Source: Escherichia coli
GTDB lineage: Bacteria > Pseudomonadota > Gammaproteobacteria > Enterobacterales > Enterobacteriaceae
NCBI RefSeq assembly: GCF_003334355.1
Contig: NZ_QOWP01000035.1
Strand: one strand, 5' to 3'
Length of the DNA stretch: 35,354 bases
Shown: piece after piece, positions 33,932-35,354 of the stretch
How positions within the stretch are numbered: the first letter of the stretch is position 1
Layout of the letters: each line of letters begins with the position of its first letter
Program-made: the position numbers and the translations under genes
The notes under the pieces: generated by a model
Databases searched by the model: none
Seen by the model: the letters and a program-made list of their open reading frames with translations, nothing else
What the model was told of the DNA's origin: nothing

Positions 33932-34356
33932 ATCCCCTCCAGAAATATGTGACTTATCCTTTACGCTGGCAGTATAACGGGAAAGGCCTTGCTAATACGT
34001 GATGACATCACATTTAAGCATGGCAAATGTCTGAAAAATGAGCGAATAATCGCGTTATACTCCCTCTTGCTGATAAGTCTGCAAAAACAACAAAATCAAA
34101 TAATTAGCATGATAAATTATTTTTTATTACGCCTAAAGGATTAAATCTTTTGCGTGCACTACACTGTCAATCAGACAAATGACTATATGGGGCAACCCGC
34201 TGTTGCCCTAAATCAAATTTACTGGATTTATTTATCTGGTGAATGACTCGCCTTCGTTTTTAAAATAGCCGCGCATTATTTCCGTCGTCACTTTTTTACG
34301 ACGACCCTATAAAACGACCATATTTTTCACAGGGTCAATTTTTAATTGAGGTGGAT

Positions 34357-35052
34357 ATGTTCAGAAAATTAGCAGCTGAATGTTTTGGTACTTTCTGGCT
34401 TGTTTTTGGTGGCTGTGGTAGTGCTGTACTGGCCGCAGGCTTCCCGGAATTAGGCATTGGTTTTGCCGGCGTGGCGTTGGCGTTCGGTCTGACCGTTCTG
34501 ACGATGGCCTTTGCTGTTGGTCATATTTCTGGTGGTCATTTTAACCCGGCGGTCACTATTGGTTTATGGGCTGGCGGACGTTTTCCGGCAAAAGAAGTCG
34601 TTGGCTACGTAATTGCCCAGGTTGTCGGCGGTATTGTTGCAGCGGCGCTGCTGTATTTAATTGCCAGTGGTAAAACGGGTTTTGACGCGGCAGCCAGCGG
34701 TTTTGCTTCTAACGGTTATGGCGAGCATTCACCAGGCGGTTATTCCATGCTTTCCGCGCTGGTAGTTGAACTGGTATTGAGTGCAGGTTTCCTGTTGGTG
34801 ATCCACGGCGCAACCGACAAATTCGCGCCGGCAGGTTTTGCGCCGATCGCTATTGGTCTGGCCTTAACCCTGATTCACTTAATTAGTATTCCGGTGACTA
34901 ACACTTCTGTTAACCCGGCGCGCAGCACCGCGGTTGCTATCTTCCAGGGCGGCTGGGCATTAGAACAACTGTGGTTCTTCTGGGTGGTGCCAATTGTCGG
35001 CGGCATTATCGGTGGTCTGATTTACCGGACCCTGCTGGAAAAGCGTGATTAA
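34357..35052 (+). CDS. aqpZ: Aquaporin Z, 231 aa
   Basis: ORF track 34351..35052 (GTG-initiated) trimmed to ATG at 34357 ([19 protein letters not shown]); two NPA motifs (HFNPAV, VNPAR). Confidence 0.95.
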
Positions 35053-35061
35053 TTAACGCAG

Positions 35062-35091
35062 AAGGCCTGGCGTAATGTCAGGCCTTTTTTT
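35062..35091 (+). terminator. Rho-independent terminator downstream of aqpZ
   Basis: aaggcctg-gcgtaatgt-caggcctt hairpin followed by T7. Confidence 0.8.
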
Positions 35092-35175
35092 AAGATGTTG
35101 TTATATGTTGATTCATCATCTTGTTGCGCTCCTTTCATGAGCTAAGCAACATATTGCCACTGGCGCAAGGAGCGC

Positions 35176-35207
35176 GCAGGGGGCGGCCAATCGCCGCCGC
35201 CCCCTGC
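35176..35207. repeat. GC-rich perfect 12-bp inverted repeat (gcagggggcggc / gccgccccctgc), 8-nt loop, inside a roughly 130-bp high-GC block
   Basis: Perfect inverted repeat seen directly; flanked by a second inverted repeat gcgctcctt (35126-35134) / aaggagcgc (35167-35175); base composition far above the window average; resembles E. coli GC-rich intergenic palindromic repeats (boxC-like), family not verified. Confidence 0.5.
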
Positions 35208-35354
35208 ACCCCCGGGCTCTGGCGAACAAAATCGCCGCTGCGCGGTGCCCTCGACTTATCCCTTACGGCTACCGGGTCGGGCGCGAGGTAACATATATGG
35301 ACGCTCCCGGAATGCAATGCTTTCTTCAGTTATGTAATAAAACGGGTAGGTGCA

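What the first reader, a model, noticed from the sequence alone, without database searches (positions are those of the whole stretch)
35120..35300. High-GC palindromic block downstream of the aqpZ terminator
After the aqpZ terminator the sequence switches to a strongly GC-rich stretch. It contains a perfect 12-bp inverted repeat (gcagggggcggc / gccgccccctgc, loop caatcgcc), a nested flanking inverted repeat (gcgctcctt / aaggagcgc) and a further small hairpin (ggcga-acaaaa-tcgcc). The composition and stacked palindromes are atypical for E. coli intergenic DNA. Possible explanations are a GC-rich repeat family member (boxC-like), a structured RNA, or a protein-binding site. A 60-aa minus-strand ORF (35135-35317) overlaps it but looks like a by-product of GC richness.
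Basis: seen in the sequence. Interest (0 to 1): 0.4.

Follow-up and report, generated by a model that had tools for sequence, protein, structure and literature searches.

The report
Known RRS/TRIP1a repeat, IS-split
The GC-rich palindromic block after aqpZ is the already described E. coli TRIP1a repeat, also called the RRS-lysO "replication risk sequence", and in this genome an RNA-guided insertion sequence that lands only in this repeat has cut it in two.

Summary
The stretch is 64% G+C, and a 12-bp perfect hairpin appears in only 1 of 2000 shuffles. It is not new. Window 35123-35294 is identical to the first 172 nt of the 266-nt K-12 TRIP1a repeat (Rudd 1999; Li 2024). That repeat is the RRS-lysO element, shown experimentally to stall lagging-strand synthesis and leave post-replication gaps (Pham 2023, 2024). 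The published G-quadruplex motif lies at 35194-35213 on the minus strand.

At 35294/35295 the repeat is interrupted by a 1386-bp IS1111-group (IS110-family) insertion sequence. Only its last 60 bp are in the window, and the 60-aa ORF is a chimera across this junction.

Findings that go beyond the papers I read:
- All 7 IS copies sampled sit at the same TRIP1 position.
- 85 of 86 genomes with an aqpZ-dusC junction carry the IS there.
- Homologues in Klebsiella and Citrobacter show compensatory changes in 23 of 70 pairs. These preserve the hairpins and two invariant A-N-GGA-Y loops while the G-runs erode.
- The resemblance to Rfam TwoAYGGAY stays below threshold.

Verdict: already known, ordinary for E. 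coli, with some useful side observations.

The parts
35062..35091 (+). aqpZ intrinsic terminator: AAGGCCTG / CAGGCCTT stem with a 9-nt loop, followed by a run of 7 T
   Evidence: I6. The simple terminator scan missed it because its loop limit is 8 nt. Rfam terminator-like alignments cover it.
35123..35294 (-). TRIP1a = RRS-lysO repeat: the 172 nt that correspond to positions 95-266 of the 266-nt G-rich (G4) strand. The functional, folding strand is the window minus strand.
   Evidence: Identical over 172 nt to NC_000913.3 915016-915281. It starts 31 nt after the terminator T-run and 70 nt after the aqpZ stop codon, as published.
35126..35175 (-). Helix P6: GCGCTCCTT (35126-35134) pairs with AAGGAGCGC (35167-35175), with a variable 32-nt loop
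   Evidence: I4. Compensatory changes occur in Klebsiella (GCGCTCCC/GGGAGCGC) and Citrobacter (CGTTCAC/GTGAACG).
35176..35207 (-). Helix P5: the perfect 12-bp hairpin with the 8-nt loop
   Evidence: I2. Seven of its 12 pairs show compensatory changes across 22 copies.
35194..35213 (-). Published RRS G-quadruplex motif GGGGGTGCAGGGGGCGGCGG. It overlaps one arm of P5.
   Evidence: Exact match. The motif and the polymerase-stop data are in Pham 2024.
35220..35243 (-). 3' strand of the long-range closing helix P1. Its partner strand is absent from the window.
   Evidence: P1 pairs covary (for example G-C to C-G in 5 copies), whereas the local hairpin gains a mismatch in Klebsiella.
35259..35292 (-). 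3' strands of helices P2 and P3 and of hairpin H2. All are orphaned because their 5' partners lie beyond the IS.
   Evidence: Structure mapped using window = 35389 - position on the G4 strand.
35294..35295 (.). Insertion junction. The repeat is cut inside the H2 loop: A-G-G-G|A-T on the G strand, GGTAACAT|CCCTGT on the plus strand.
   Evidence: The window diverges from K-12 here. Seven of 7 sampled IS copies have the identical junction.
35295..35354 (-). Last 60 bp (right end) of a 1386-bp IS1111-group IS110-family insertion sequence, with the subterminal inverted repeat ATGGACGCTCC at 35297-35307. The transposase would lie beyond the window end on the minus strand.
   Evidence: Identical to L002 3196-3255. 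The transposase matches NF033542 at 358 bits. The IS is in 180 of 5426 genomes.
35135..35317 (-). 60-aa ORF: spurious, a chimera of IS end and repeat
   Evidence: Its start lies in the IS and its body in TRIP1a, and the junction is absent from K-12.

Best explanation
The block is the aqpZ-proximal 172 nt of TRIP1a, the same element as the replication risk sequence RRS-lysO.

Established by others in K-12: when the replication fork unwinds the element, its G-rich strand (here the window minus strand) folds on the lagging-strand template. DNA polymerases stop there. The lagging-strand polymerase skips ahead and leaves a single-stranded gap of up to about 2 kb, which SSB and RecA then load. The authors propose that this relieves topological stress at the edges of the Ter domain.

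Added here: the folding unit is a conserved multi-helix structure (helices P1-P3, two hairpins with A-N-GGA-Y loops, the 12-bp hairpin P5, and helix P6). Compensatory substitutions maintain it across Escherichia, Klebsiella and Citrobacter, and wobble pairs fall on the G-rich strand.

In this genome an IS1111-group insertion sequence has inserted into the loop of the second hairpin. The IS appears to recognise the site through guide segments in its downstream non-coding RNA. The G4 motif, P5 and P6 remain next to aqpZ, and the other 94 nt are moved 1.4 kb away.

Shown: identity, truncation, IS site-specificity and covariation. Inferred: that this truncated copy still stalls replication, and that the IS uses seekRNA guidance.
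For: Identity:
- 172 of 172 nt are identical to K-12 TRIP1a, at the published distance from aqpZ.
- The published G4 motif is present.
- TRIP1 and RRS are equated in Pham 2024.

Mechanism in K-12 (from the papers):
- RecA/SSB peaks depend on the RRS.
- Pol I, II and IV stop at the G4 strand, and gaps form wherever the element is placed.
- Single-molecule confirmation is reported in a 2026 preprint.

Conserved fold:
- 97.6% of cells are paired, and 23 of 70 pairs carry compensatory changes, against 9.8 +/- 1.9 in shuffles (0 of 500 reach 23). Slid controls give 2-7.
- G.T wobble cells number 47 on the G strand, against 9 A.C cells.

Insertion sequence:
- The window diverges from K-12 at 35294.
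- The complete IS, with its transposase and 11-bp subterminal repeats, is seen in L002.
- Seven of 7 copies sit at the same site and in the same orientation, at three loci.
- The non-coding region contains GAGGTAACAAGG. This combines a match to the left flank with the reverse complement of the right flank, as described for seekRNAs.
Against: - Nothing tested here shows that the truncated copy still causes gaps. P1-P3, H1 and half of H2 are separated from it.
- The orientation of TRIP1a and TRIP1c relative to flanking genes, and hence to replication, varies among natural strains (Li 2024 counts). This fits poorly with a strict lagging-strand requirement.
- Klebsiella shows up to 13 places in one chromosome-sized record, not just a Ter-flanking pair.
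- The G-runs erode in K. aerogenes and Citrobacter, with compensation on the C-rich arm. Only 1 of 22 copies has a canonical (G3+N1-7)x4 motif. Selection therefore seems to act on the hairpin rather than on the quadruplex.
- Covariation cannot distinguish folded single-stranded DNA from RNA.
Confidence: 0.8

Rival explanations
1. The element encodes a structured RNA read from the G-rich strand. It would be a TwoAYGGAY-like RNA whose two GGA-containing hairpin loops bind CsrA or another RNA-binding protein. The DNA effects would then be secondary.
For: - Rfam TwoAYGGAY (RF01731) is the best hit for all intact Escherichia copies. It always falls on the G strand with the same architecture, at 26.6-36.9 bits and E 0.003-0.6.
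- The H1 loop CAUGGAUG is invariant in 22 copies, and the H2 loop is C-A[G/A/C]GGA[U/C]-G.
- Stems covary while loops stay fixed, and wobble pairs favour this strand.
- TwoAYGGAY has been predicted to bind CsrA.
- From my own knowledge, the loops resemble the CsrA SELEX consensus RUACARGGAUGU.
Against: - Every copy scores below the gathering score of 43. The Klebsiella copy gives no TwoAYGGAY hit even at E<=10 in a 351-nt search.
- No promoter-like site is found in the window part.
- The orientation relative to neighbouring genes is not fixed.
- The CsrA CLIP tables list dusC and ybjE as unbound. This is weak evidence, because intergenic peaks may not be listed.
- No transcript data were available.
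Confidence: 0.15
2. It is a selfish, MITE-like dispersed repeat. Its conserved fold would serve its own spread or persistence, for example recognition as folded single-stranded DNA by a transposase acting in trans. Replication stalling would be a side effect.
For: - Copy number is variable (1-7 places per E. coli genome in a query that included 60 bp of IS; zero to five TRIP1 copies in Li 2024).
- Presence or absence varies by locus: TRIP1d is absent from K-12, where boxC-like repeats occupy the site.
- A sixth, divergent copy lies between asmA and yegH.
- One Klebsiella chromosome-sized record has up to 13 places, at unrelated intergenic sites between convergent genes.
- At dusC the element occurs in either orientation, with different immediate flanks.
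Against: - No terminal inverted repeats beyond GTTG were seen (by inspection of the sequences), no target-site duplication was seen, and no partner transposase was identified.
- No phage copies were found.
- The 'plasmid' records that carry it are all predicted non-mobilizable, and several are chromosome-sized.
- K-12 genetics indicates that at least one copy is conditionally essential.
Confidence: 0.2
3. It is an RNA 3'-end element of aqpZ, acting as a stabiliser, second terminator or insulator before lysO in the way REP/BIME elements do.
For: It lies 31 nt after the aqpZ terminator and 158 bp before lysO. Most copies lie just downstream of genes.
Against: - The strand presented to the upstream gene differs between loci: the C strand after aqpZ and the G strand after dusC in K-12. 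It also differs between strains.
- aqpZ already has a strong terminator.
- No T-run follows the hairpins.
Confidence: 0.05
4. It is a boxC or REP family member, or a small protein-coding gene (the 60-aa ORF).
For: It is GC-rich, palindromic and intergenic, and an ORF is present.
Against: - The sequence is TRIP1.
- The boxC-like repeats seen in K-12 between alx and sstT are unrelated in sequence.
- The ORF crosses the IS junction and cannot exist in genomes without the IS.
Confidence: 0.01

Closest known systems
TRIP1 repeats of E. coli (Rudd 1999; Li et al. 2024, PMC10888264)
   Same: It has the same sequence (172 of 172 nt of TRIP1a), the same locus, the same distance from aqpZ, and the same G+C content and hairpin potential.
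   Different: This copy is truncated: 172 of 266 nt remain next to aqpZ, and the rest is displaced by an IS. Li et al. attribute the TRIP1a/TRIP1c rearrangements to the repeats themselves and do not mention the IS.
RRS, replication risk sequence (Pham et al. 2023 and 2024; Kusi-Appauh et al. 2026 preprint)
   Same: It is the same element (RRS-lysO). The published G4 motif is present, on the strand that is the lagging-strand template in K-12.
   Different: The papers describe the element as 222 bp, G4-centred, and a Ter-flanking pair. Here covariation points to a larger conserved fold in which the hairpin is preserved while the G-runs erode. Klebsiella carries many copies, and natural copies occur in both orientations.
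TwoAYGGAY RNA motif (Rfam RF01731; Weinberg 2010)
   Same: The architecture is the same: an outer stem encloses two adjacent hairpins whose loops read AUGGAU and A-N-GGA-Y, each closed by C-G. The match is on the same strand in all Escherichia copies.
   Different: Scores of 26.6-36.9 bits fall below the gathering score of 43, and Klebsiella gives no hit. No transcript is known. The window copy holds only the 3' part of the fold.
IS1111-group insertion sequences guided by a seekRNA, such as ISEc11 (Siddiquee et al. 2024)
   Same: For 35295-35354 and beyond, the shared features are a DEDD transposase of 341 aa, 11-bp subterminal inverted repeats, a 273-nt non-coding region downstream of the transposase, one fixed target and orientation, and guide-like matches to both target flanks.
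   Different: The target differs: GAGGTAACAT|CCCTGTAAAAC in TRIP1, against GTGAAAATACTG for ISEc11. The length is 1386 bp against 1443 bp. I could not establish its ISfinder name, and nothing was tested experimentally.
IS621 inserting into REP sequences (Choi et al. 2003, cited)
   Same: An IS110-family element uses a chromosomal intergenic repeat as a safe, specific landing site.
   Different: The repeat family and the IS subgroup are different.

Membership tests
TRIP1 / RRS | Sequence identity to the K-12 TRIP1a (RRS-lysO) repeat | tested here: met
   172 of 172 nt are identical, window 35123-35294.
TRIP1 / RRS | Position 31 bp after the aqpZ terminator and 70 bp after the aqpZ stop codon | tested here: met
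   The T-run ends at 35091, the stop codon ends at 35052, and the repeat starts at 35123.
TRIP1 / RRS | G4-forming sequence GGGGGTGCAGGGGGCGGCGG on one strand | tested here: met
   Exact match at 35194-35213 on the minus strand.
TRIP1 / RRS | Full-length element (266 bp as TRIP1a, 222 bp as RRS) | tested here: not met
   Only 172 nt are contiguous, and the IS begins at 35295. This is an interrupted member, not a different family.
TRIP1 / RRS | Triggers lagging-strand post-replication gaps with RecA/SSB loading | not testable with these tools
   Shown for the intact K-12 copies only.
TwoAYGGAY (RF01731) | Covariance-model score at or above the Rfam gathering score of 43 bits | tested here: not met
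   Intact Escherichia copies score 26.6-36.9 bits. The window fragment gives no hit, and neither does Klebsiella.
TwoAYGGAY (RF01731) | Two adjacent hairpins with AYGGAY loops inside an outer stem | tested here: inconclusive
   The H1 loop AUGGAU is invariant. The H2 loop is A[G/A/C]GGA[U/C], a strict AYGGAY in only 1 of 22 copies. Both stems covary.
TwoAYGGAY (RF01731) | Expressed as an RNA | not testable with these tools
   No transcript data were available. The CsrA CLIP tables are negative for the neighbouring genes.
boxC repeat | Similarity to the boxC consensus | not tested
   No boxC consensus was searched. The block is fully accounted for by TRIP1, and the boxC-like repeats seen in K-12 between alx and sstT do not align with it.
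IS1111 group of the IS110 family (for 35295-35354) | DEDD IS110-family transposase | tested here: met
   NF033542 at 358.4 bits against a cutoff of 140. This was tested on the complete copy in L002, not inside the window.
IS1111 group of the IS110 family (for 35295-35354) | Subterminal inverted repeats of 11-13 bp, with the long non-coding region downstream of the transposase | tested here: met
   ATGGACGCTCC / GGAGCGTCCAT, and a 273-nt downstream non-coding region.
IS1111 group of the IS110 family (for 35295-35354) | One specific target and orientation, with no target duplication | tested here: met
   Seven of 7 copies are at ..GGTAACAT|..|CCCTGTAAAAC... Only an ambiguous AT is shared between the ends.
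IS1111 group of the IS110 family (for 35295-35354) | A seekRNA with segments complementary to both target strands directs insertion | tested here: inconclusive
   The non-coding region contains GAGGTAACA (9-mer, left flank) overlapping ACAAGG (reverse complement of the right flank). No RNA or transposition data exist.

The most novel reading that the evidence does not exclude
The RRS/TRIP1 element may not be essentially a G-quadruplex. It may instead be a conserved folded single strand, DNA or RNA, with a TwoAYGGAY-like core whose two invariant GGA hairpin loops are read by a protein. It would also be the dedicated RNA-guided landing pad of an IS1111-group insertion sequence. Oppositely oriented IS copies in RRS-lysO and RRS-dusC, rather than the 266-bp repeats, would then drive the recurrent 1.3-Mb inversion of the Ter region seen in natural E. 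coli.
Probability: 0.3. Interest if true: 0.55.

Novelty: already known. Interest (0 to 1): 0.3.

Why it matters
The finding itself adds nothing new. The block is a published repeat with a published, experimentally supported function.

The side results could matter to people working on RRS elements in three ways:
1. Natural strains exist in which an RRS is split by an IS, leaving the G4 and the 12-bp hairpin on one side and the two GGA hairpins on the other. These are ready-made separation-of-function alleles.
2. The comparative data suggest that selection preserves hairpins and loop sequences rather than G-runs. This bears on the proposed mechanism.
3. The Ter-flanking inversions credited to TRIP1 homology are almost always IS-bearing in complete genomes.

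Tried and rejected
- **Terminal inverted repeats.** I first read TATATGTT (35102-35109) / AACATATA (35290-35297) as the ends of a MITE (I9). I rejected this because the second arm spans the repeat/IS junction and is absent from K-12.
- **Rfam on the window fragment.** It gave only chance-level hits. The sub-threshold TwoAYGGAY hit appears only with the intact K-12 copy.
- **Exact 20-mer scan.** GCGGCGATTTTGTTCGCCAG, scanned across one genome per species, found full copies only in Escherichia assemblies and in two short non-Escherichia-labelled contigs (L011, L029), plus 20-23-nt chance matches elsewhere. Klebsiella and Citrobacter homologues differ in this block and were found only through mislabelled 'plasmid' records.
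- **Phage collection.** No match.
- **Empty-site comparison at alx-sstT.** I looked for target-site duplications and found no clean insertion. K-12 has unrelated boxC-like repeats there.
- **seekRNA paper supplements.** A search for this IS or its target found nothing. ISEc11 has a different target.
- **CsrA CLIP supplement.** The neighbouring genes are not listed as bound.
- **TRIP1e reference record.** It is not in the collection.
- **Strand choice by wobble counting.** The counts lean to the G strand (13 sites against 7, 47 cells against 9). The evidence is not decisive, because several A.C cells come from the poorly aligned Citrobacter copy.

Full report
**1. Observation**

The sequence downstream of aqpZ (ORF 34351-35052) contains the terminator hairpin at 35062-35086 followed by a T-run. 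A G+C-rich stretch follows, at 0.67-0.78 in 60-nt windows over 35140-35289.

- The perfect 12-bp inverted repeat (35176-35187 / 35196-35207, 8-nt loop), the 9-bp repeat (35126-35134 / 35167-35175) and GGCGA-ACAAAA-TCGCC (35221-35236) are all present.
- A perfect stem of 12 bp or more occurs in 1 of 2000 dinucleotide shuffles of 35120-35300.
- The 172-nt core folds better than shuffles as single-stranded DNA on both strands, with z = -2.8 and -3.7.
- The 9-bp repeat is adjacent to the 12-bp hairpin, not nested around it.

**2. Identity**

A megablast of 35100-35354 hits all 5426 complete E. coli genomes, with a median of 3 places per genome. Only 113 genomes hold the whole query.

Alignment with K-12 shows identity up to 35294 and complete divergence afterwards. 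A literature search led to the TRIP1 repeat family (Rudd 1999; Li et al. 2024). K-12 TRIP1a is NC_000913.3 915016-915281, and its first 172 nt on the aqpZ-sense strand are identical to window 35123-35294. The published distances are reproduced: 31 bp from the terminator and 70 bp from the stop codon.

A second search showed that TRIP1a and TRIP1c are the RRS-lysO and RRS-dusC "replication risk sequences". The published G4 motif GGGGGTGCAGGGGGCGGCGG lies at 35194-35213 on the minus strand and overlaps one arm of the 12-bp hairpin. The last 2.3 kb of the window up to 35294 is 99.9% identical to MG1655.

**3. What is known about how it works (from the papers)**

- RecA and SSB bound to single-stranded DNA peak on the lagging strand at both RRS, and the peaks disappear when the RRS is deleted.
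- The G4 strand stops Pol I, II and IV in vitro and impairs Pol III in vivo.
- Inverted RRS lose the peak.
- A 2026 preprint reports gaps at nearly every replisome passage in single-molecule assays, and weaker activity of the C strand.

**4. The interruption**

From 35295 the window matches the end of a 1386-bp element seen whole in strain 2016C-3878 (L002 3196-4581).

- It has a 341-aa transposase on the minus strand that matches NF033542, "IS110 family RNA-guided transposase", at 358 bits.
- It has 11-bp subterminal inverted repeats, ATGGACGCTCC, at window 35297-35307.
- It has a 273-nt non-coding region downstream of the transposase.

These are the features of the IS1111 group.

The IS occurs in 180 of 5426 genomes, at 1-4 places each. 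Seven copies sampled from seven genomes sit at three loci: aqpZ/lysO, dusC/yohP and asmA-yegH. All are at the same TRIP1 position and in the same orientation...GAGGTAACAT | IS | CCCTGTAAAAC.... The same junctions are seen in an eighth copy, in strain SC418.

On the G-rich strand the cut falls inside the loop of the second hairpin (A-G-G-G|A-T). The non-coding region contains GAGGTAACAAGG. This joins a 9-mer identical to the left flank and the reverse complement of the right flank. That is the pattern reported for seekRNAs. ISEc11 has a different target, and I found no mention of this IS or target in that paper's supplements.

The 60-aa ORF at 35135-35317 crosses the junction and is therefore an artefact.

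**5. Comparative structure**

I aligned 18 Escherichia copies. I then aligned a set of 22 (alignment A7): 16 of those plus five Klebsiella copies and one Citrobacter copy, recovered from chromosome-like records in the plasmid collection.

- RNAalifold on the G strand predicts a closing helix P1, inner helices P2 and P3, two adjacent hairpins H1 and H2, the 12-bp hairpin P5 and helix P6. Twenty-two of its 73 pairs are compensatory.
- With a hand-specified structure, 97.6% of cells pair. Twenty-three of 70 pairs have changes on both sides, against 9.8 +/- 1.9 in shuffles (0 of 500 reach 23) and 2-7 for slid partners.
- G.T wobble cells number 47 on the G strand against 9 A.C cells, so the G strand is the likelier folding strand.
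- The H1 loop CAUGGAUG is invariant, and the H2 loop is C-A[G/A/C]GGA[U/C]-G.
- In K. aerogenes and Citrobacter the G5 runs degrade (GAGGG, AAGGG) with matching changes on the C-rich arm. Only 1 of 22 copies has a canonical four-run G3 motif.

Selection therefore visibly preserves the hairpin. This does not contradict the polymerase-stop data, but it suggests that the quadruplex is not the whole story.

**6. RNA family comparison**

- The window fragment gives no meaningful Rfam hit.
- Intact Escherichia copies hit TwoAYGGAY (RF01731) on the G strand at 26.6-36.9 bits, below the gathering score of 43.
- Klebsiella and Citrobacter copies do not hit.

The architecture is alike, but membership is not met. 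TwoAYGGAY has been predicted to bind CsrA. The CsrA CLIP tables list dusC and ybjE as unbound.

**7. Rearrangements**

In strains 2016C-3878 and SMS-3-5 the IS sits at hybrid junctions, aqpZ-TRIP1-IS-TRIP1-dusC and yohP-TRIP1-IS-TRIP1-lysO.

I used composite queries to count these junctions.
- 86 of 5426 genomes have aqpZ and dusC within 2 kb of each other, but only 1 has them within 0.9 kb.
- 85 genomes hold the full 4770-bp IS-bearing configuration.
- The native aqpZ-lysO arrangement is joined within 2 kb in 5306 genomes and within 0.9 kb in 5275. At most 31 genomes therefore carry an insertion there. One of these is IS5, and one is this IS, in strain SC418.

The inversions that Li et al. 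ascribe to TRIP1 are thus almost always IS-bearing. Clonal relatedness of the 85 genomes was not assessed, so the number of independent events is unknown.

**8. Verdict**

The finding is a correct observation of a known element. Novelty: already known. The RNA option remains a minority rival.

Noticed in passing
window 35295-35354; L002 3196-4581: A 1386-bp IS1111-group insertion sequence appears to insert only into TRIP1/RRS repeats. It always lands at the same nucleotide in the loop of the second GGA hairpin and always in the same orientation. Its non-coding region carries guide-like matches to both flanks. It is present in 180 of 5426 complete E. coli genomes.
   Followed up: partly
L002 (2016C-3878), L033 (SMS-3-5 908509-912894); genome counts: 85 of 86 complete genomes in which aqpZ is joined to dusC (the 1.3-Mb Ter-region inversion) carry this IS at the junction. 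The rearrangements published as TRIP1-mediated may therefore be IS-mediated. Clonality was not assessed.
   Followed up: partly
L034-L036, L038 (asmA-yegH intergenic region, locus positions ~1387-1500 and 2885-2957): There is a further, more divergent TRIP1 copy, about 79% identical in its left part. It lies next to an HTH/RelE toxin-antitoxin remnant between asmA and yegH. It is not among the five published loci TRIP1a-e, and the IS occupies it in all four genomes sampled.
   Followed up: partly
L039-L044 (Klebsiella pneumoniae, K. aerogenes, Citrobacter freundii): Full-length TRIP1/RRS homologues at 75-87% identity occur at many unrelated intergenic sites, mostly between convergent genes. 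One chromosome-sized K. pneumoniae record shows 13 places. This differs from the picture of a single Ter-flanking pair.
   Followed up: partly
L003 3067-3438 versus L004 2456-2843 (dusC-yohP intergenic region): TRIP1c lies in opposite orientations in K-12/O145 and in 536/O157 Al Ain, and the 40-75 bp immediately flanking it differ. The 536 flanks resemble those of TRIP1a (TTCATCATCTT on one side, TTTGYAAWT on the other). How the element flips in place is unexplained.
   Followed up: partly
L032 3047-3444 versus L008 (alx-sstT intergenic region): Where some strains carry TRIP1d, K-12 carries unrelated boxC-like GC-rich repeats (CCCTCTCCC / GGGAGAGGG / GGGGTGAGGG). This looks like replacement of one repeat type by another rather than simple insertion.
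   Followed up: no
Genome-contig scan: The 20-mer GCGGCGATTTTGTTCGCCAG, invariant in all Escherichia copies, was found in full-length copies only in Escherichia assemblies plus two short non-Escherichia-labelled contigs (L011, a Proteobacteria MAG; L029, labelled Bacillus), among 100,044 species representatives. This sits oddly with the published remark that Kluyvera RRS are nearly 100% identical. Nine unrelated taxa share only the 20-23-mer.
   Followed up: no
L043 3163-3220 (K. pneumoniae): In one Klebsiella copy a 6-bp insertion extends the 12-bp hairpin to a perfect palindrome of about 23 bp per arm (GGAGCCCGGGGGTACAGGGGGCGGC...GCCGCCCCCTGTACCCCCGGGCTCC).
   Followed up: no
H189-H197 (for example O157:H7 strains and SF-166): In these genomes the match stops about 49 nt past the aqpZ stop codon, before the repeat. 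The RRS-lysO copy therefore appears to be absent from those lineages, consistent with Li et al. finding TRIP1a in 70% of genomes.
   Followed up: no
L042 31-154; L007 561-597: Two minor Rfam hits lie outside the element. One is V_AS5-like (54.5 bits, below its gathering score of 96) upstream of alx in K. aerogenes. The other is a partial naRNA4/REP-like hit downstream of TRIP1b in K-12.
   Followed up: no
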